A DNA stretch of 64,000 nt from a virus: positions 89,376 to 153,375 of the IMG/VR virus record IMGVR_UViG_3300049855_000474. One strand, written 5' to 3'. Positions 39,755-46,569 of this stretch are shown here, in pieces. The notes below the pieces were generated by a model that saw only the letters and a program-made list of their open reading frames with translations, was not told where the DNA came from and searched no databases. Numbering within the stretch: the stretch's first letter is position 1; every line of letters starts with the position of its first letter. The position numbers and the translations under genes were made by a program.

Positions 39755-40800
39755 GATTCGTCCATTCCTCAGACTGGCACATAGGAGCCAGCAAGTTCCT
39801 TCCTGACTATCTACAGCGCCAAGCTGCTGTAATTGACGATATTTTTGCTGTCGCCGAACGGAATAACGTCACTACAGTAGTAATCGCTGGTGACGTTTTC
39901 GATGACGACTGTCCCTCCAGAGAAGAGAGGGATATGGTCCAGCGTAAGCTGGTTGGGTACGATCATGCTGGTTTCAATATTCTGGTCATCCCAGGAAACC
40001 ATGACATGTCAGACATGACTGGATACACTGCAATACACTACCTGGCGCTTCTCCATGACCAAGGGAAGTTCCTCAATTCTACAATTGTGGAGAGAACAAC
40101 CTACCGAGTTATTGACGACACATTGTTTATTCTCCTGTGTCATACGCCCAGACGCTTCAAAGAAGACTGCGAAGCAGCTATCAATGCCGCTAAGAACTCC
40201 TCTATCGCTCCCAAATTCAAAAGCGTCGTCGTCGTAGTACACGAAACTTTCAAAGGGTCGATCACTGATACGAATTGGCGCCTGCATGACGGGGTCAATG
40301 TCCCCAAGCTCGACTACGAAGGAGAAGAGGTTAGTAAGTTTGAAGTTACGTATTGTGCTGCTGGTGATATACATGTGCGACAAAAATTAGCTCCTAATAC
40401 ATATTACTGCGGAGCGCCTCTGCAAGTCAAGTTCGGAGATCAGTGGCCTAAAGGAGTTTTGATTGTCGATACCGACGATCCGGATAATCCCGTATTCGAA
40501 CCTGTAAAATCCAAACAACTGGTAAAAACCACAAGTTTTGAGGACCTATACCCCGATTGCTACGTGAAGGTGGTCACCAATAAAGCAGAAGCGCTTGGTG
40601 TAGCTCGTCCCGCTAACGTCATGAAGGTTGAGTTCGAGAAACCTACATTTGAGCCTGTACTAGACCTCAAGAAGAGTCTTAGCCTTCACCAGCTGATCCT
40701 CGAAGGAGTAAACCAAGCCTTCGAAAATGAAGATGACTTGGCTATAGCTAAGCGTGAGGTAAATAGAATAATTAGCGAAGTGGAGCAGGTGGACGAATGA
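39751..40800 (+). CDS. sbcD: SbcD/Mre11-like metallophosphoesterase nuclease
   Basis: SDWHIG, AGDVFD, PGNHD, HE, GDIH, YCGAP. Confidence 0.92.
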   Translation: MRFVHSSDWHIGASKFLPDYLQRQAAVIDDIFAVAERNNVTTVVIAGDVFDDDCPSREERDMVQRKLVGYDHAGFNILVIPGNHDMSDMTGYTAIHYLALLHDQGKFLNSTIVERTTYRVIDDTLFILLCHTPRRFKEDCEAAINAAKNSSIAPKFKSVVVVVHETFKGSITDTNWRLHDGVNVPKLDYEGEEVSKFEVTYCAAGDIHVRQKLAPNTYYCGAPLQVKFGDQWPKGVLIVDTDDPDNPVFEPVKSKQLVKTTSFEDLYPDCYVKVVTNKAEALGVARPANVMKVEFEKPTFEPVLDLKKSLSLHQLILEGVNQAFENEDDLAIAKREVNRIISEVEQVDE

Positions 40801-43100
40801 CAACAACCTATAAGCACTTTGCTGTACGTAATGGTGGCTGTATTATTGAAGCAGATATGCCCCTTGAAAACCAGGGATTGGTTTTAATTCAAGGTGTCAA
40901 TAATGATGAAGGGGGAAGCAATGGAGCTGGTAAGAGCACGCTTGGAGATCTACTAGCTAGTATAATCACAGGACGCACAGGAAAAAGGTCTGGGGAGAAA
41001 TCTTTCGTCAAAAAGAATGACTTACTCAATCTAAAGAACCCTCGTAATTTTCATACGCAACTCGCCTTCGACAAAGAGGGCGTTGAATACCTAGTAAACA
41101 ATTATCGAAAGCACCAAGATTGGGGTACACGAATAGAATTGTGGGTAGATGGTGAGGATAAGACTCCAACAACGGATATAGACGATGTCCAAGCTAAAAT
41201 TATGGAAATTTTAGACATCACGCCAGATGAGTTTTTCGGACAAACTTACCTATCCCAGCAGTACTCACATGCCTTAGTTCATGGAACACCCTCACAGAAA
41301 AAGAAGTTTCTATCCACTTATTTTGGACTGGAGCAAATAGATGCAGCAGCCAAGGTATCACAGAAGTTCGTCAATGGCATAGTTATACCCAACGAAGCTG
41401 AGCTTGATGACCTTCGTAGAGGATTAGAGCAACAGTTAAAGGATCTGCCACCAGAGAATGTCATCAATGACAATAAAAAAGCAGCGGATACTCTTCGCGG
41501 AGAATTGCAGCAAAGGATTCTAGACCTACGCTTCCAGGTAGAGCAACAGAAAAAAGCTAAACTTGTTGAGGAACAAAGCCAAGCTTGGGAACAAAAAGTA
41601 GCTGCTCTGGGTGTCTCTTTCACTGCTCCCGATATGTTCCAAGAAATAACAAATTGCACAAATCAGGCAACCCTCTTACAAAGAGAGATACAACGACTCA
41701 CGGAGGTGAGTACCATAAACAAACAGTTGGAACAGTTGGGGGTAGATACCACCCAATCCTATCAAGAAATTAGACAACAGATTGAAGAACATGAACTGAT
41801 TCTCAACAAAAAAGGAGAGGACGTAGCAAAGCTCAAAGTCCGAGCTATCAAGGAACAAGAGTTGGGTGCTCTCCCCAAAACAGAGAAAACCCTCAGGGAC
41901 CTAAGTTTAGAACTGATACAGGCTCAACTAGAAGCTAAGACGTATACAGCAAACCTGAATACTCTAGCCTCGGAAATAAACAAGCTATCTTTCAAAGGTA
42001 CCAAGTGCCCTACCTGCCTACGTGCTATCACAGAGGAAGAGCACAAAGAGATGCTCTCAACGAGGCAGCATAACCACAAGCAGTTACAAGAAGTAGTTAC
42101 TGACCTACAACAGCAGGTTAGAGATCTTCAATCTCTGTCTACGGCTAAAGAGCAAGCGATGCTCCTCGAGTACGAGTTGTCGTCCCTTCCCACTGGTGAC
42201 CACACGCAAGCGACAGAAGAACTTCAAAATATAAAAGCCACCAAAGTTACTTTACAAAAGCTGGCTGACGACCTGGTAAAAGTCACAGCATTGCAGGATC
42301 GTTTAGAGACGCTAGAAGCATCCAAGGATGCGAAAGTACTGGTAGAAGCTCACAATCTCCAGGAAGTTATAGTAACAACTACAAACAAAGCGACTGTATT
42401 ACGAAATGCTAGAGAATGGTTGTTGCAAAACGGTCAAACCAAATTTGATATGCACGCTCTCGGTATGGCACAAAGTGAACTTGACATCATTGAACGCAAG
42501 TTCACAGAAGCTAACGAAGCAGCAATAAACCAAGCAACGCTGCTTACTACGCGCAATAATACAGTGAAGCAAATTGGGGACATTGAACGAATTCTAGCTA
42601 AAAATAGCGAGGAAAAACGAAGAAAGCGCATTCTAGAAGTCATCAATGTTACAATTAATAGCATCAAGAAGGCGAAACTTAGCGAAGCTACTGGCATGTT
42701 GACCGGTGTACTGCCACACTACATAAGTCAGCTCTTCCCGTTAGGTGATGTCAGAATAGCAACACCAGAGAATGAAAACGAATTCGACTTATTCCTAGAT
42801 AAAGGGGATCAACAAATCCCACTATACTTGGTTAGTGGTGGTCAAGCTAAGCGAGTAGCTTTAGCGATATTTTTCGCTTTTGCCAAAATGGGAACAAAAA
42901 GCAGTAATATTTTACTCCTGGATGAAGCTGATAAAGACCTGGACCCTCTAGGCAGAGAAGCCCTCTACGAAGTTCTACAAGATTTGAAGTTCCCTAGTGT
43001 TTTCCTAACATCGCATAGCTCGGACCAACAAAAAAGTAAAAAATATGATCAAGTTTGGAAAATGGAAATGACTAATAGCGTATCAAGACTGATTCGATAA
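40797..43100 (+). CDS. sbcC: SbcC/Rad50-like ATPase
   Basis: NGAGKST, Q-loop, coiled coil with CPTC hook, SGGQ signature, LLLDE, TSH. Confidence 0.93.
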   Translation: MTTTYKHFAVRNGGCIIEADMPLENQGLVLIQGVNNDEGGSNGAGKSTLGDLLASIITGRTGKRSGEKSFVKKNDLLNLKNPRNFHTQLAFDKEGVEYLVNNYRKHQDWGTRIELWVDGEDKTPTTDIDDVQAKIMEILDITPDEFFGQTYLSQQYSHALVHGTPSQKKKFLSTYFGLEQIDAAAKVSQKFVNGIVIPNEAELDDLRRGLEQQLKDLPPENVINDNKKAADTLRGELQQRILDLRFQVEQQKKAKLVEEQSQAWEQKVAALGVSFTAPDMFQEITNCTNQATLLQREIQRLTEVSTINKQLEQLGVDTTQSYQEIRQQIEEHELILNKKGEDVAKLKVRAIKEQELGALPKTEKTLRDLSLELIQAQLEAKTYTANLNTLASEINKLSFKGTKCPTCLRAITEEEHKEMLSTRQHNHKQLQEVVTDLQQQVRDLQSLSTAKEQAMLLEYELSSLPTGDHTQATEELQNIKATKVTLQKLADDLVKVTALQDRLETLEASKDAKVLVEAHNLQEVIVTTTNKATVLRNAREWLLQNGQTKFDMHALGMAQSELDIIERKFTEANEAAINQATLLTTRNNTVKQIGDIERILAKNSEEKRRKRILEVINVTINSIKKAKLSEATGMLTGVLPHYISQLFPLGDVRIATPENENEFDLFLDKGDQQIPLYLVSGGQAKRVALAIFFAFAKMGTKSSNILLLDEADKDLDPLGREALYEVLQDLKFPSVFLTSHSSDQQKSKKYDQVWKMEMTNSVSRLIR

Positions 43101-43123: not shown

Positions 43124-43945
43124 ATGTCAAAATTAGTAGGATTAGCGTTTACATCCCCAGGTCTCGCAGTTTGTGTTATAGACCGAGAAAAGTACAGAGT
43201 TTGCTACCACGATCAGTCCACCGCAGCGGACTTCCGCCTATTTCTGCAACAGAAAGATGATAGGAAGCCGGTGGTCTTTGTGACATCGGCTCGTGTATTG
43301 GCTGAAATTCAACCAATGGGAGAAGGCACAGTAGAGAGTTACGTTCTATTCAGTGATCCTGCTATTCTCACCGAAATCAAAGGAATTCACCTGCCAGATA
43401 TTACAGGAGAAGCAGCGGGAGGATGGACTAGAGTAAATATTACCCCAGACGAGTTTAATGCTATACTTGATAAGGGGGCGACTGAAACCTTTGAAGTCAC
43501 AGAAAAAGCACTCACCGCAAGTGGGGACTTAACTAAAGGTATTACTTTTAAAGAATTGGTGGAAGCTGTCGAAGCCTCCTATAGAGAGTTGGGTAAAGAT
43601 TCTACCGACATGGTTCTTCAGGCTTGTCGTTATGTGACAAAACTAATCAGCAAGAAAACATGGGTATCATCAGCCCGAAAACCTGCTCTAAACGCAGGAA
43701 TAAGCGTAAAAGTGCTAGCGGAACTTGAGAAATCTATTGAAACAGACAAAGCCGCTGAGGAGCTTTGGCGCGCTTTTTATGAATTGGCAACCAATGGCAC
43801 GGATAGCCAAAAGATCCTGACGAACTATGCAGTGACTAAGGACGATATCGACCTTCTCGTGAATAAACTAAAACCAGGACAAGGGCAGACCTTCGATTTC
43901 ACAGCTGTTCCGGGTGCGGCTAAGAAAAAGAAGAAATCGTCTTGA
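43124..43945 (+). CDS. hypothetical protein
   Basis: 273-aa ORF with SD. Confidence 0.7.
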   Translation: MSKLVGLAFTSPGLAVCVIDREKYRVCYHDQSTAADFRLFLQQKDDRKPVVFVTSARVLAEIQPMGEGTVESYVLFSDPAILTEIKGIHLPDITGEAAGGWTRVNITPDEFNAILDKGATETFEVTEKALTASGDLTKGITFKELVEAVEASYRELGKDSTDMVLQACRYVTKLISKKTWVSSARKPALNAGISVKVLAELEKSIETDKAAEELWRAFYELATNGTDSQKILTNYAVTKDDIDLLVNKLKPGQGQTFDFTAVPGAAKKKKKSS

Positions 43946-43969
43946 CACGAGCCTAAAAGGCTTTAGTGT
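43942..43969 (+). promoter_or_regulatory. sigma-70-type promoter
   Basis: TTGACA-16 nt-TAGTGT upstream of 44009. Confidence 0.55.
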
Positions 43970-44008
43970 AAGCAAGTCAATCTCAGTCTCAGCAAAAGGA
44001 TTAGTACA

Positions 44009-44746
44009 ATGACCAAATTAAATCAAATTTTAGCGATAGAAAAAGGCGAGAAGAACAAGAGCTTCAAGCAACTTACTGACTTGCACCACAAGTCGGAAAA
44101 GGCGGAGCTTTACGAGGGTAGGGTTCGTACCTATACCCCAGCTGCTGAGGATGGCGAGCAGCTCCCACCCGAGACGCAGGTCGTGCAGCAGAATGCTGAT
44201 GACGTTCTTAGCCAGTTCCAGAATATCCTGGTGCCTCTTTGGGATATTACAGCAACTAAGGACTATACTAACGGACAGTCCGGTTATGCTGACATCGTGG
44301 TGAATGGTCGTACTCTTCTCACCAAGGTTCCAGTAAGTTATCTTCTCTTTCTGGAGAAGCAGTTGGCGGATGTCGAGACCTTCATTTCCAAGATCCCTAC
44401 CTTGGATGCTTCCCAGAAGTGGTCTTTTGATGAGAATCAGAAGTGCCATGCCACGGAGAAGACTTGGCAGAATCGAGCCAAGAAGGTTCTGAAGAATCAT
44501 GTAAAGTCAGTAGCAACTGATAAGCATCCGGCACAGGTCGATGTGTATAACGAGGACATCGTCATCGGTAGGTACGAGTCTATTCGTTTCTCTGGTGCTG
44601 TTTCAGTCAGCAAGAAGGAAATGCTCCTTAGTCGCGTTCGAGAGTTGAAGAACGCAGTTCTATTCGCCCGAGAACAAGCCAACTCGGTCGATGCCTCAAA
44701 GCAGGAAGTAGCGAAGGTTCTCTTCGGTTTCGTCCTGAACGGCTAA
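44009..44746 (+). CDS. conserved uncharacterised protein (DUF7873-like), candidate partner of the downstream RNA
   Basis: MTKLNQILAIEKG...RTYTP..EDGEQLPPE...VPVSYLLFLEKQL...AT.KHPAQV...FSGA...AREQAN (family recalled from memory). Confidence 0.8.
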   Translation: MTKLNQILAIEKGEKNKSFKQLTDLHHKSEKAELYEGRVRTYTPAAEDGEQLPPETQVVQQNADDVLSQFQNILVPLWDITATKDYTNGQSGYADIVVNGRTLLTKVPVSYLLFLEKQLADVETFISKIPTLDASQKWSFDENQKCHATEKTWQNRAKKVLKNHVKSVATDKHPAQVDVYNEDIVIGRYESIRFSGAVSVSKKEMLLSRVRELKNAVLFAREQANSVDASKQEVAKVLFGFVLNG

Positions 44747-44749
44747 AGC

Positions 44750-45210
44750 TTCACAGTTCCTTGTGAACTGTGTTTGGAGACAAACTTAATCTCTTAGTAA
44801 CGATCAATCTGATATCCTTCCTTGTCCCGTAGGCAACTACTTGCAGGTTCAAGTCCTGCCCCTCTGACTGAGAATTCCTTATCTAAATAATGAATTTTGA
44901 GTCAGAGGGTGGCGAAATGGCAAACGCAGGCAACAGGTAATAAAACTATTCTCCCAAGCTCTTAAACCGCTACTATTGTGATCTCTCTCTTCTGGTATCT
45001 CCTGCTAAAGATGATGGTGCGAATCCATCTCCCTAAGCAGAGTTTCTAAGTTCTACCTCATAGGTAATAACTCGGTGATTCTGCTTAGGGATGGCCCAAC
45101 AGCAAGGCGTTAGCACTAAAACTAAGGACCAGAATTAAACGTCGTTCACATGCCGTAAACAGTAGTAAAAAATCCAGCCGGGCAGCAGGCTTCGCTGCCC
45201 GGCATTTTTA
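44750..45210 (+). ncRNA. ~460-nt RNA with two tandem circularly permuted tRNA-like (YrlA/Y-RNA-like) modules
   Basis: T arm precedes the acceptor hairpin and D arm in both modules (44822-44933 and 45003-45115); ends in a terminator. Confidence 0.85.
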
Positions 45211-45213
45211 TTT
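45178..45213 (+). terminator. intrinsic terminator
   Basis: GCCGGGCAGC...GCTGCCCGGC followed by ATTTTTATTT. Confidence 0.9.
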
Positions 45214-45231
45214 AAAGAACAAAGGAAAGTT

Positions 45232-46569
45232 ATGACTACGACAAAAGCTTTTGAAGTACTTGATAGACTCGCCCAGATGTCTGGACGTAACGAGAAAATT
45301 GCTCTTCTGGAGGAGAATAGGGACAATACAACTCTCCAGAATATCCTCAGGTGGGCATACAATGGGGATAAGTATCATGTGCATACAGAGGTCGTGGTCG
45401 CTCTTGCAAACAACAATTCAGAAGAAGTACGGGTCAGTAACCTAGTTGCTTTTGATGCGCTACTGACTCGATTGAAGAATAGAGAAGTAACGGGAGGCAA
45501 AGCGGAACAAGAAGTGCAGCAATTGTTCACTGCCTTTGATAGCTCTGAGAGCAAGTGGTACCTACGGGTAATGAAGCACGACCTGAGGACTGGGTTCACC
45601 AAAGGAACGGTCACCAAGGTATTCGGCAAGGATTTCTGGGGCTCTAGTGCCACAGAGAGTAACTCCTACGGTTTCCCCGGCGTGATGCTCGCTGAGAAGT
45701 GGGACAAGCACAAGTCCAAGTACATGTTCAAGGAGTTCTACGTAGAACCAAAGTACGATGGCTACAGGCTAGTGGCTGTTGTCGACAATGGACAAGTTAC
45801 CTTCTATTCTCGGCAGGGGAAGTCAGAGCCATACACCACAAATTTGACCCATGTTGCCCAGCAAATTGTGGAAGCAGGGTTCGATAATTGTATGGTTGAC
45901 GGCGAGATTATGAAGGATTCGTGGAACGGGACCTCCGTGGTCAAAAAGAAGAAGATGTCAACAGAGGACCGTGAAAACCTAGCTAAAGTCACTTTCACTG
46001 CTTTTGATTACATTGATTTTGCGATCTATAGTACAGGAGATGACAGCTACACAGTGCCTTTTCACGAGCGACGAAGTCAGCTGGAAGACGTTCTAGCCGA
46101 GAGTAACTATACAAACCTGAAAATCACGGATAGTTTCAAGGTTAAATCAGAGGAAGAGGCTTTCGATCACCACGCCAGGTTCCGGAAAGAAGGAAAAGAA
46201 GGCACTATGGTCAAAGACCCTAACGGTCATTACATGTTCAATGATCGAAACCATTTCTGGGTCAAGATCAAGCCGGTCCACTCTATCGATGCTAAAATTA
46301 TAGATTTTCAACCAGGCGAAGCCGGAAAGAAAAATGAGCATCGCCTAGGCGCTATCATCTGCCAGGATGCTAAAGGCATTAAATATAAGTGCGGACAAGG
46401 TTTTGAGGATTTAGATCGGGATTACATCTGGGAGAACCGCGCTAAGCTACTGGGAGCTATTATCGAGATGGAAGCTCAAGATGAAACCAACTCAAAAACA
46501 GGACCGGTAGCTACTGCCAGGAATGCTGTGTTCCTTCGAATTCGCGAGGATCGAGAAGGCATTCTGTAG
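45232..46569 (+). CDS. lig: ATP-dependent DNA ligase
   Basis: EPKYDGYR, DGEI, FD, EGTMVK, WVKIK, OB domain. Confidence 0.95.
   Translation: MTTTKAFEVLDRLAQMSGRNEKIALLEENRDNTTLQNILRWAYNGDKYHVHTEVVVALANNNSEEVRVSNLVAFDALLTRLKNREVTGGKAEQEVQQLFTAFDSSESKWYLRVMKHDLRTGFTKGTVTKVFGKDFWGSSATESNSYGFPGVMLAEKWDKHKSKYMFKEFYVEPKYDGYRLVAVVDNGQVTFYSRQGKSEPYTTNLTHVAQQIVEAGFDNCMVDGEIMKDSWNGTSVVKKKKMSTEDRENLAKVTFTAFDYIDFAIYSTGDDSYTVPFHERRSQLEDVLAESNYTNLKITDSFKVKSEEEAFDHHARFRKEGKEGTMVKDPNGHYMFNDRNHFWVKIKPVHSIDAKIIDFQPGEAGKKNEHRLGAIICQDAKGIKYKCGQGFEDLDRDYIWENRAKLLGAIIEMEAQDETNSKTGPVATARNAVFLRIREDREGIL

What the first reader, a model, noticed from the sequence alone, without database searches (positions are those of the whole stretch)
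43942..45213. Candidate new RNP system: DUF7873-like protein co-transcribed with a ~460-nt RNA of two circularly permuted tRNA-like modules
Seen: one unit runs from a promoter (TTGACA 43942) through a 245-aa gene, a hairpin (44752-44772) and the RNA to a strong terminator (45178). Module 1 order is anticodon-like 3' strand TTGTC (44822), GNRA-capped variable arm GTAG-GCAA-CTAC, T arm GCAGG-TTCAAGT-CCTGC (44843-59), acceptor helix CCCTCTGACT/AGTCAGAGGG closed by a long hairpin, Leu-type D arm TGGCGAAATGGCAAACGC, then GGCAA. Module 2 is TGCTAA (45003), T arm GATGG-TGCGAAT-CCATC, a 14-bp acceptor helix 45030-43/45078-91, D arm GCC-CAACAGCAA-GGC, then TTAGCA. There is no CCA end and no anticodon loop. 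Established: this T-acceptor-D permutation is the hallmark of bacterial YrlA Y RNAs, which partner Ro60/Rsr. No Ro60/TROVE gene is in the window and the RNA is tandem and larger. Inference: the upstream protein is its partner, forming an undescribed tRNA-mimic RNP, perhaps a decoy for anticodon nucleases or tRNA-sensing defences, or a scaffold.
Basis: partly seen in the sequence, partly recalled or inferred. Interest (0 to 1): 0.92.

Follow-up and report, generated by a model that had tools for sequence, protein, structure and literature searches.

The report
Double tRNA-mimic RNA beside DUF7873
A phage gene of unknown function (DUF7873) is followed by a folded RNA of about 460 bases that holds two back-to-front tRNA look-alikes, and this gene-RNA pair recurs in hundreds of bacteria and phages, mostly without Ro60, the usual partner of such RNAs, so it is probably an undescribed RNA-protein system.

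Summary
ORF 44009-44746 is a full-length DUF7873 protein. It is followed by a 5' hairpin, two permuted tRNA-like domains (T arm, loop-closed acceptor, D arm, anticodon-stem analogue) and an intrinsic terminator. A covariance model built only from other genomes finds domain 2 in the window at 61.8 bits (E 1e-14).

Across 41 relatives, 41 of 44 base pairs show compensatory changes. The RNA follows the gene in 76 of 83 viral loci and 75 of 80 bacterial loci. In 151 Streptomycetaceae genomes the gene (96) and the RNA (97) co-occur in 96.

In Herpetosiphon the two lie 1.8 Mb apart, and there the RNA has a promoter-like site and a terminator of its own. That points to a partnership acting in trans, not a 3'UTR element.

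Ro60/TROVE is absent from 26 of 31 complete phage genomes that carry the pair. Each domain matches Rfam YrlA only below threshold. The protein's confident model matches no known fold. Binding and function are untested.

This scan has met the same cassette before on other DNA (at least 166 genomes). I found no publication describing it. Verdict: real, and a new variant of the Y-RNA/YrlA kind with a new protein partner.

The parts
43942..43947 (+). TTGACA hexamer proposed as the -35 of a promoter. Status uncertain.
   Evidence: Sequence. It overlaps the TGA stop of ORF 43124-43945. No -10 with 4 of 6 matches lies at 16-18 nt, and the promoter scan does not report it.
44009..44746 (+). DUF7873 protein gene (245 aa)
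   Evidence: PF25283, E 1.1e-91, profile positions 1-242 of 244. More than 3,600 homologues of the same length and 2,617 clusters at 50% identity. AF2 model pLDDT 89.
44752..44772 (+). 5' hairpin (P0), the first helix of the RNA
   Evidence: 8-bp stem CACAGTTC/GAACTGTG. Kept in L001 and L177 with different sequence. In Herpetosiphon a promoter-like TTGCCC-17-TACAAT lies just upstream of the equivalent hairpin.
44773..44973 (+). Domain 1: permuted tRNA-like module 1 with its flanks. Anticodon-stem analogue 44822-26/44929-33, variable-arm hairpin 44829-40, T arm 44843-59, loop-closed acceptor 44860-44909 (7-bp core 44860-66/44903-09), D arm 44910-27.
   Evidence: Coordinates from alignment A2. 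T, acceptor and D helices are 99-100% paired across 41 sequences with compensatory changes. Secondary R1 match at 44843-44928.
44974..45154 (+). Domain 2: closing helices plus permuted tRNA-like module 2. Outer helix 44977-82/45145-50, internal loop 44983-89 opposite TTAAACGTCG 45135-44, inner helix 44990-97/45127-34, anticodon-stem analogue 45003-08/45110-15, T arm 45013-29, acceptor 45030-43/45078-91, D arm 45092-45108.
   Evidence: Full-length match to covariance model R1, which was built from 43 other genomes: 61.8 bits, E 1e-14. All helices covary. Coordinates.
45177..45213 (+). Intrinsic terminator (10-bp G+C-rich stem, then a T run) ending the RNA
   Evidence: Terminator scan. Terminators sit at the same relative place in L177 and in Herpetosiphon.

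Best explanation
This is a two-part module. One part is the DUF7873 protein. The other is a dedicated non-coding RNA of about 460 nt here and about 330-400 nt in most relatives.

The RNA is built from a 5' hairpin and two Y-RNA-like domains. Each domain is a tRNA 'top half': a T arm stacked on a 7-bp, loop-closed acceptor stem, plus a D arm that forms the elbow. The anticodon stem of each domain opens into a closing helix instead of an anticodon loop.

I propose that the protein binds the conserved non-tRNA parts of the RNA. The best candidate site is the near-invariant UUAAAYG/AUC internal loop at the base of domain 2. I propose that the resulting particle shows two tRNA-shaped heads to machinery that recognises the tRNA elbow and acceptor arm, such as an exoribonuclease like PNPase, RNase P, or the ribosome. 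It would then act in tRNA or RNA surveillance or upkeep without needing Ro60.

Shown: the RNA and its structure, its tight genetic coupling to the gene, and its independence from Ro60.
Inferred: physical binding, the binding site, and the cellular target.
For: Structure:
- 97.1% of cells are paired in 44 pairs over 41 sequences, against 62.6% in shuffles and 38-48% when partners are slid. 41 pairs show double changes.
- In module 2, the T-loop change U55 to G goes with loss of the D-loop GG (6 of 8 such cases lack GG, against 17 of 108 with TTC). This indicates a real tRNA elbow.
- An anticodon-stem analogue sits at tRNA geometry in 79% of module 2 and 52% of module 1, against 10% and 7% in controls.

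Coupling of gene and RNA:
- A full-length R1 match lies downstream on the same strand in 76/83 viral loci, 75/80 bacterial loci and 5/5 metagenome relatives.
- It is also in the unannotated gap after the gene in 7 cultured phages whose proteins are only 30-45% identical.
- In Streptomycetaceae the counts are 96 with both, 0 with gene only, 1 with RNA only and 54 with neither.
- No other conserved neighbouring gene and no fused forms.

Action in trans:
- Herpetosiphon has one gene and one RNA 1.8 Mb apart, and the RNA has a promoter-like site and a terminator of its own.
- In L003/L004 the RNA lies 8.4 kb downstream.

Independence from Ro60:
- TROVE is absent from 26 of 31 complete viral records with the pair, and from the Streptomyces and Nocardia genomes checked.
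- TROVE is present in only 12 of 401 Actinomycetota (one of the 12, G251, is an unpublished genome).

Against: - There is no transcript, binding or phenotype datum.
- The protein is not basic (median pI 6.5) and has no recognisable RNA-binding fold or motif.
- In the window and its nearest relative L001 the flanks of module 1 barely pair (8-9 inter-strand pairs against a median of 29.5). Part of the consensus architecture is therefore relaxed here.
- In two phages a Ro60 gene lies within 2 kb of the cassette (L058, L061), so some link to Ro60 cannot be excluded.
- One genome keeps the RNA without the gene (G096).
- Co-occurrence counts share phylogeny and are not independent events.
Confidence: 0.6

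Rival explanations
1. The RNA works largely on its own as a tRNA mimic, for example as a regulator or competitor for tRNA-binding enzymes. DUF7873 would be an enzyme or chaperone that acts on it, or on tRNAs, only transiently (processing, modification, turnover). It would not be a stable subunit.
For: - The protein is as conserved as an enzyme, with many invariant polar residues (H26, Y42, K84, D85, N88, E116, K117, D133, H173, Q176, R221, E222, N225), and it is not basic.
- About 45% of short acceptor loops begin with NCCA after a 7-bp stem. This is the configuration that RNase P cuts in M. smegmatis YrlA (PMC4201824), which suggests processing.
- An RNA without the gene exists in G096.
Against: - The near-perfect co-occurrence and co-retention in trans fit a stable partnership equally well.
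- No catalytic fold or motif was recognised.
- The window's acceptor stems are long closed hairpins without CCA, so processing there cannot be universal.
Confidence: 0.2
2. The structured region is a cis-acting 3'UTR element of the DUF7873 mRNA. tRNA-like 'punctuation' would direct 3' processing or stabilise the message, with no function in trans.
For: In most loci the RNA starts within about 20 nt of the stop codon, on the same strand, and ends at a terminator. No promoter between gene and RNA was detected in the window.
Against: - The RNA looks like a separate gene, with a promoter-like site and a terminator, 1.8 Mb from the protein gene in Herpetosiphon.
- It is 8.4 kb away in L003/L004.
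- It is separated from the gene by other ORFs in L001 and about ten other loci.
- Conserved single-stranded motifs and elbow tertiary contacts go beyond what a processing signal needs.
Confidence: 0.08
3. These are simply divergent Y RNAs (YrlA/YrlB-like) that serve a Ro60/Rsr protein encoded elsewhere. DUF7873 would be an unrelated neighbour.
For: - Each domain gives a sub-threshold match to Rfam YrlA in compact relatives (36.9 and 23.8 bits, E 1e-6 and 0.007).
- The gene-RNA-RNA layout recalls rsr-yrlB-yrlA.
- Ro60 genes abut the cassette in L058 and L061.
- Only 36% of this phage genome is held.
Against: - 26 of 31 complete phage genomes with the pair have no TROVE, and neither do the Streptomyces and Nocardia genomes checked.
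- TROVE is present in only 12/401 Actinomycetota while DUF7873 is in 96/151 Streptomycetaceae.
- Genuine YrlAs next to TROVE in Streptomyces match only the tRNA-like core of R1 (positions 41-98), not its closing helices.
- The YrlA Ro-site motif GNCGAAN0-1G is absent from the window RNA and not positionally conserved in relatives.
Confidence: 0.05
4. The cassette is a selfish or mobile element that targets tRNA gene regions. That would explain its place inside phage tRNA arrays and its patchy spread.
For: Many phage copies sit inside tRNA arrays. Bacterial neighbourhoods are not conserved. Phage and bacterial proteins are about 50% identical.
Against: - It is single copy per genome.
- There is no recombinase, nuclease or reverse transcriptase signature in the protein.
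- The window copy lies among DNA-metabolism genes with no tRNA nearby.
- I did not look for flanking repeats.
Confidence: 0.03

Closest known systems
YrlA-class bacterial and phage Y RNAs with Ro60/Rsr (Rfam RF02553; Chen et al. 2014, PMC4201824)
   Same: - Permuted tRNA mimic: T arm, loop-closed 'acceptor' stem and D arm, with the anticodon stem opening into a long helix formed by the flanks.
- Encoded next to the partner protein's gene, often as two RNAs in tandem.
- Found in both bacteria and phages.
- Sub-threshold but significant matches of both domains to RF02553 in compact relatives.
- 7-bp acceptor stems followed by CCA, as in the RNase P-cleaved M. smegmatis YrlA.
   Different: - Two mimics are joined in one RNA of about 330-460 nt, against 80-130 nt for Y RNAs.
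- Scores are far below the family's gathering score, and there is no match at all in the window.
- The closing helices and the UUAAAYG/AUC loop differ, and no GNCGAAN0-1G Ro site is present.
- The linked protein is DUF7873, which has no similarity to the TROVE ring. Ro60 is absent from most genomes that carry the pair.
tmRNA with SmpB
   Same: - A tRNA-like domain that lacks an anticodon arm, paired with a small dedicated protein.
- The two genes can be adjacent or unlinked.
- Also carried by phages. In L006 and L058 a phage tmRNA lies just upstream of the cassette.
   Different: - The acceptor end is not free, so no aminoacylation is expected.
- There is no tag reading frame or pseudoknot array, and ARAGORN and Rfam call no tmRNA here.
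- DUF7873 showed no match to any solved structure in the sequence or fold searches.
- The resemblance is a functional analogy recalled from general knowledge, not a tested relationship.
Circularly permuted tRNA genes (Cyanidioschyzon merolae type)
   Same: The gene order is 3' half, linker, then 5' half. In about 45% of short-loop relatives the linker begins with discriminator plus CCA.
   Different: There is no anticodon loop and no decoding capacity. The anticodon stems continue into closing helices that covary. In the window the linkers are long hairpins without CCA.

Membership tests
DUF7873 (Pfam PF25283) | Whole-protein score above the curated cut-off over the full profile | tested here: met
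   307.3 bits against a cut-off of 27; residues 1-243 on profile positions 1-242 of 244.
YrlA / bacterial Y RNA (Rfam RF02553) | Score at or above the family's gathering score (69 bits) | tested here: not met
   No YrlA match in the window even at E<=10. In the compact relative L008 the two domains score 36.9 and 23.8 bits.
YrlA / bacterial Y RNA (Rfam RF02553) | tRNA-like module in the order T arm, closed acceptor-like stem, D arm | tested here: met
   Both modules. Helices are 97-100% paired with compensatory changes. T-loop/D-loop covariation.
YrlA / bacterial Y RNA (Rfam RF02553) | Long stem formed by the flanks of the module that carries the Ro60 site (5' strand motif GNCGAAN0-1G, PMC4201824) | tested here: not met
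   A closing stem exists for domain 2 and covaries. The motif is absent from 44747-45215 and is not at a conserved position in relatives. The conserved loop is AUCNA opposite UUAAAYG.
YrlA / bacterial Y RNA (Rfam RF02553) | Encoded within about 4 kb of a Ro60/TROVE gene and bound by Ro60 | tested here: not met
   No TROVE in the 153 kb held of this phage, which is only 36% complete, so this is weak on its own. TROVE is absent from 26 of 31 complete relatives and from the Streptomyces and Nocardia genomes checked. Binding cannot be tested here.
YrlA / bacterial Y RNA (Rfam RF02553) | Single module, 80-130 nt | tested here: not met
   Two modules at a fixed spacing of about 150-170 nt in one unit of 330-460 nt.
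tRNA | Cloverleaf in normal order with an anticodon loop and a free acceptor end | tested here: not met
   ARAGORN finds 0 genes in the window. No Rfam tRNA match. The order is permuted and there is no anticodon loop.
tmRNA (standard or permuted) | tRNA-like domain plus tag reading frame and pseudoknots | tested here: not met
   ARAGORN and Rfam (RF00023, RF04321) give no match in the window. The same tools do find tmRNAs in L006 and L058.
Ro60/TROVE (as identity of the partner protein) | TROVE domain, HEAT-repeat ring plus vWA | tested here: not met
   DUF7873 has only the PF25283 hit. It is 245 aa, and the model is a bundle of four long helices plus a beta sheet. Fold searches returned nothing specific, which by itself excludes nothing.

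The most novel reading that the evidence does not exclude
DUF7873 and its double tRNA-mimic RNA form a stable, Ro60-independent ribonucleoprotein. Its two tRNA-shaped heads dock on a tRNA-recognising machine, such as two sites of the ribosome, the PNPase trimer or RNase P. This would be a new class of tRNA-mimic RNP, comparable in standing to tmRNA-SmpB or Ro-Y RNA. It would be used by Streptomyces-type bacteria for RNA or translation surveillance, and by large phages, often from inside their tRNA arrays, to keep translation running during infection.
Probability: 0.35. Interest if true: 0.9.

Novelty: new variant of a known kind. Interest (0 to 1): 0.8.

Why it matters
Y RNAs and tmRNA are the only well-understood bacterial RNAs that borrow the tRNA shape, and each works through one dedicated protein.

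Here a third pairing appears. The protein family is highly conserved, with 2,617 clusters at 50% identity, all about 245 aa, and has no known fold or function. It is tied to a large, strongly covarying RNA with two tRNA heads.

The pair occurs in at least 583 bacterial species, including about two thirds of the sampled Streptomycetaceae. It also occurs in cultured phages of Gordonia, Rhodococcus, Arthrobacter, Ralstonia, Rhizobium, Klebsiella and Vibrio, and of the cyanobacterium Pseudanabaena.

In GenBank phage records the RNA is unannotated or overlaid by doubtful small ORFs. The system is directly testable in tractable hosts. It could reveal a new route by which cells and phages monitor or protect tRNA-dependent processes.

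Tried and rejected
Searches that gave nothing:
- Rfam at gathering score on the window and on 20 relatives found only tRNAs and tmRNAs. A permissive scan of the window region gave only chance-level hits on the terminator.
- PHROGs, NCBIfam and PADLOC gave nothing for the protein.
- The PDB sequence profile gave nothing. Foldseek against PDB and BFVD gave no match at E<=0.001 and only low TM-scores.
- VIA-align wide gave only generic helical-bundle hits at Z about 8.
- The protein atlas gave no informative cluster.
- A search for longer or fused forms found one 457-aa protein with no extra domain.
- Literature searches for DUF7873, PF25283, YrlA plus phage, permuted tRNA plus bacteriophage, and phiRSL1 ORF270 found no description of this pair.
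- Burroughs and Aravind 2016 and Sim et al. 2020 are not held, so I could not check them.

Analyses that failed:
- RNAalifold could not recover the closing stem of domain 1 because the flanks align poorly. I used per-sequence folding against shuffles instead.
- I dropped an association test between RNA loop variants and protein residues, because the variation is scattered and confounded by phylogeny.
The metagenome scan gave only one moderately close relative.

Ideas rejected:
- Ordinary tRNA, tmRNA or a functional permuted tRNA gene, because there is no anticodon loop.
- A decoy for anticodon nucleases, for the same reason.
- The weak R1 hits of about 45-49 bits elsewhere in genomes as extra copies. 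The three I fetched (two in Streptomycetaceae genomes, one in this phage's own contig) lie on tandem tRNA genes. Two other weak hits lie next to TROVE genes and look like genuine YrlAs.
Full report
WHAT IS THERE. The window is part of a 153-kb IMG/VR phage contig that CheckV rates 36% complete. ORF 44009-44746 (+) is a full-length member of Pfam DUF7873 (PF25283, E 1e-91). It lies between an SbcC-like ATPase gene plus an unknown 273-aa ORF upstream and an ATP-dependent DNA ligase gene downstream. The 485 nt between its stop codon and the ligase gene hold no ORF of note. They fold far better than shuffled sequence (z -5.8).

These are:
- a hairpin at 44752-72;
- module 1: anticodon-stem analogue 44822-26/44929-33, variable-arm hairpin 44829-40, T arm 44843-59, hairpin-closed acceptor 44860-44909, D arm 44910-27;
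- module 2: anticodon-stem analogue 45003-08/45110-15, T arm 45013-29, 14-bp acceptor 45030-43/45078-91, D arm 45092-45108;
- a strong terminator at 45177-45203.

ARAGORN and Rfam at gathering score call nothing here. The proposed promoter is a perfect -35 hexamer with no usable -10, and it overlaps the upstream stop codon. I treat it as unverified.

IS IT MORE THAN CHANCE. I collected 81 viral loci and 80 bacterial loci that encode relatives of the protein (38-73% identical). I added cultured-phage records and metagenome contigs.

A simple scanner looked for a T arm followed by a loop-closed 7-bp acceptor stem and a D arm. It found two such modules, 150-170 nt apart, on the same strand just after the gene in most loci.

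An alignment of 41 full-length RNAs gives a consensus of 44 base pairs, and 41 of them show compensatory double changes. In that alignment 97.1% of cells are paired, against 62.6% in column shuffles and 38-48% when partners are slid by 1-3 columns. The covariation score is 0.905 against 0.22.

I built a covariance model (R1) of domain 2 from 43 genomes, leaving out the window and its closest relative. It matches window 44974-45154 end to end at 61.8 bits, E 1e-14. Its tRNA-like core also finds module 1.

Two further signs that real tRNA geometry is kept:
- An anticodon-stem analogue sits at the canonical distance in 79% of module 2 and 52% of module 1. Controls give 10% and 7%.
- When the T loop of module 2 reads UGC instead of UUC, the D loop usually lacks its GG (6 of 8 cases, against 17 of 108). 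This is what a G18/U55 elbow contact predicts.

ARCHITECTURE. The free-standing Herpetosiphon copy and the alignments agree on the order of parts.
- A short 5' hairpin comes first.
- Domain 1 follows. It is module 1, closed in most relatives by a long interrupted helix made of short CUGA/UCAG-type helices, with a conserved 3'-side loop (consensus UCAGAUUAUCGCUCCAG).
- Domain 2 follows. It is module 2, closed by two covarying helices around a conserved internal loop: AUCNA on the 5' side and the near-invariant UUAAAYG on the 3' side.
- A terminator ends the unit.

In the window and in L001 the flanks of module 1 pair poorly. They form 8-9 inter-strand pairs against a median of 29.5. Module 1 in this lineage carries a class-II-like variable arm, which also covaries in L001 and L177. 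This lineage is a somewhat relaxed variant.

Acceptor loops range from 4 to over 140 nt, so that end appears free to vary. About 45% of the short loops start with discriminator plus CCA.

COUPLING TO THE PROTEIN.
- A full-length R1 match lies downstream on the same strand in 76 of 83 viral loci. Two of the misses are truncated loci.
- The same holds in 75 of 80 bacterial loci and in 5 of 5 metagenome relatives with enough sequence.
- In seven cultured phages whose proteins are only 30-45% identical to the window's, module-like matches fall in the unannotated 440-700-nt gap after the gene. These are Talia1610, NiceHouse, PA-SR01, RHph_Y65, phiRSL1, KpLz-2_45 and Vibrio D472.
- In an even sample of 151 Streptomycetaceae genomes, 96 carry one DUF7873 gene and 97 carry one full-length R1 match. 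The overlap is 96, with 54 carrying neither. These counts share ancestry and are not independent events, but the gene and the RNA clearly come and go together.
- Of the weaker partial R1 hits, the three I fetched lie on tandem tRNA genes. That is the same artefact Chen et al. noted for YrlA searches.
- No other protein-coding neighbour is conserved, and no fused forms exist.

The exceptions are informative:
- In L003/L004 the RNA lies 8.4 kb downstream.
- In Herpetosiphon aurantiacus the single gene and the single RNA lie 1.8 Mb apart. The RNA there has a sigma-70-like promoter (TTGCCC-17-TACAAT) and its own terminator.

A purely cis-acting 3'UTR role is therefore very unlikely.

RELATION TO Ro60 AND YrlA. 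The design is that of YrlA (PMC4201824). In the compact relative L008, Rfam's YrlA model matches both domains significantly but far below its gathering score: 36.9 and 23.8 bits against 69. It finds nothing in the window.

The defining partner is missing:
- No TROVE in the held part of this phage.
- TROVE in only 5 of 31 complete viral records that carry the pair.
- None in the Streptomyces and Nocardia genomes checked.
- TROVE in 12 of 401 sampled Actinomycetota. One of the 12, G251, is an unpublished genome, so that tally rests partly on it.

Where Streptomyces has Ro60, an R1 hit about 1.2 kb from it matches only the model's tRNA-like core, positions 41-98. The YrlA Ro-site motif is absent from the window RNA. 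The RNA is best described as a tandem, enlarged relative of YrlA with different closing helices and a different protein.

Some link remains possible. In L058 a Ro60 gene directly follows the RNA, and in L061 one lies 1.7 kb upstream.

THE PROTEIN. DUF7873 is a uniform family of about 245 aa. It has more than 3,600 hits at 90% clustering and 2,617 clusters at 50%, with many invariant polar and charged residues. The AlphaFold model is confident (pLDDT 89). It shows four long helices and a beta sheet with one long hairpin. No search by sequence, profile or fold gave a meaningful relative. Its median pI is 6.5, so it is not an obviously basic RNA binder.

MECHANISM. Shown:
- a conserved, structured, two-headed tRNA mimic;
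- its genetic partnership with DUF7873;
- its independence from Ro60 in most genomes.

Inferred, by analogy with Ro-Y RNA and tmRNA-SmpB:
- The protein binds the conserved non-tRNA loops.
- The particle uses its two tRNA top halves to engage elbow- and acceptor-recognising machinery.

The many phage copies inside tRNA arrays, and two beside phage tmRNAs, point to tRNA or translation upkeep. Because there is no anticodon loop, a decoy for anticodon nucleases is unlikely.

I put 0.6 on the stable-RNP reading. The main rival, at 0.2, is that the protein acts on the RNA only transiently.

NOVELTY AND CONTEXT. This scan's earlier notes describe the same cassette in at least 166 other genomes. My tests were run independently and agree with them. 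One of those notes credits Burroughs and Aravind (2016) with the general idea of Ro-independent tRNA-like RNAs. I could not read that paper. Searches of the held literature found no description of DUF7873 or of this RNA. I class it as a new variant of the Y-RNA/YrlA kind with a new protein partner.

Noticed in passing
L190:1501-1645 (-) = G052:C1:1172194-1172338; the gene is at G052:C1:3008209-3008934: In Herpetosiphon aurantiacus the double tRNA-mimic RNA looks like a free-standing gene, with a TTGCCC-17-TACAAT promoter-like site and its own terminator. It lies 1.8 Mb from the single DUF7873 gene. This copy suggests the natural ends of the RNA.
   Followed up: partly
L058:1765-4432: One phage contig carries, in a row and on one strand: a YrlA-like RNA (35.7 bits), a tRNA, a tmRNA, DUF7873, the double RNA, and then a Ro60/TROVE gene. 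In L061 a TROVE gene lies 1.7 kb upstream of DUF7873.
   Followed up: partly
L110:6335-6488 and L110:6900-7045: A Ktedonobacterales contig has two full-length copies of domain 2 (97.4 and 96.6 bits) about 900 nt and 1,500 nt downstream of the gene. The RNA appears to be duplicated there.
   Followed up: no
L168 (G096:C11:242861-243003, - strand): One Streptomycetaceae genome has a good copy of the RNA (81.5 bits) but no detectable DUF7873 gene nearby or elsewhere. It may be an orphan RNA or a recent gene loss.
   Followed up: partly
relatives L005, L030, L033, L044, L047 and others (acceptor loops): About 45% of short acceptor loops begin with discriminator plus CCA straight after a 7-bp stem, against about 1.6% expected by chance. 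Others read NCUN. [quoted passage not shown] The window's own loops are long hairpins without CCA.
   Followed up: partly
window 45018-45024 with 45097-45105; also L001, L006, L043, L055, L068: Module 2 T loops that read UGC instead of UUC usually go with D loops that lack the GG pair (for example CAACAGCAA in the window). This looks like covariation of the elbow's tertiary contact.
   Followed up: partly
L082:3736-4234 (Gordonia phage GodonK), L083:3738-3845 (Keelan), L084:3931-4026 (Vibrio phage D472): In GenBank phage records the RNA region is unannotated or overlaid by very small 'hypothetical protein' CDSs, some on the opposite strand. These are probably spurious calls.
   Followed up: no
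L166 (G000:C1:50129-50285, outside the window): The same phage contig carries a tRNA cluster (Asn, Phe, Lys) about 84 kb from the cassette. Here, unlike in many relatives, the cassette is not inside the tRNA array.
   Followed up: partly
G092:C1:2254713-2254769 and G136:C1:1869596-1869652: In two Streptomycetaceae genomes without DUF7873, an R1 hit limited to the model's tRNA-like core lies about 1.2 kb from a TROVE gene. These are probably genuine YrlA RNAs, and they form a useful contrast set.
   Followed up: no
window 40797-43100 and 45232-46569: The flanking genes are an SbcC-like ABC ATPase and an ATP-dependent DNA ligase. The ATPase also matches the PADLOC mad3, AriA and LmuB models, which I take to be shared ATPase-fold similarity (not checked). 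The 273-aa ORF 43124-43945 has no family match.
   Followed up: no
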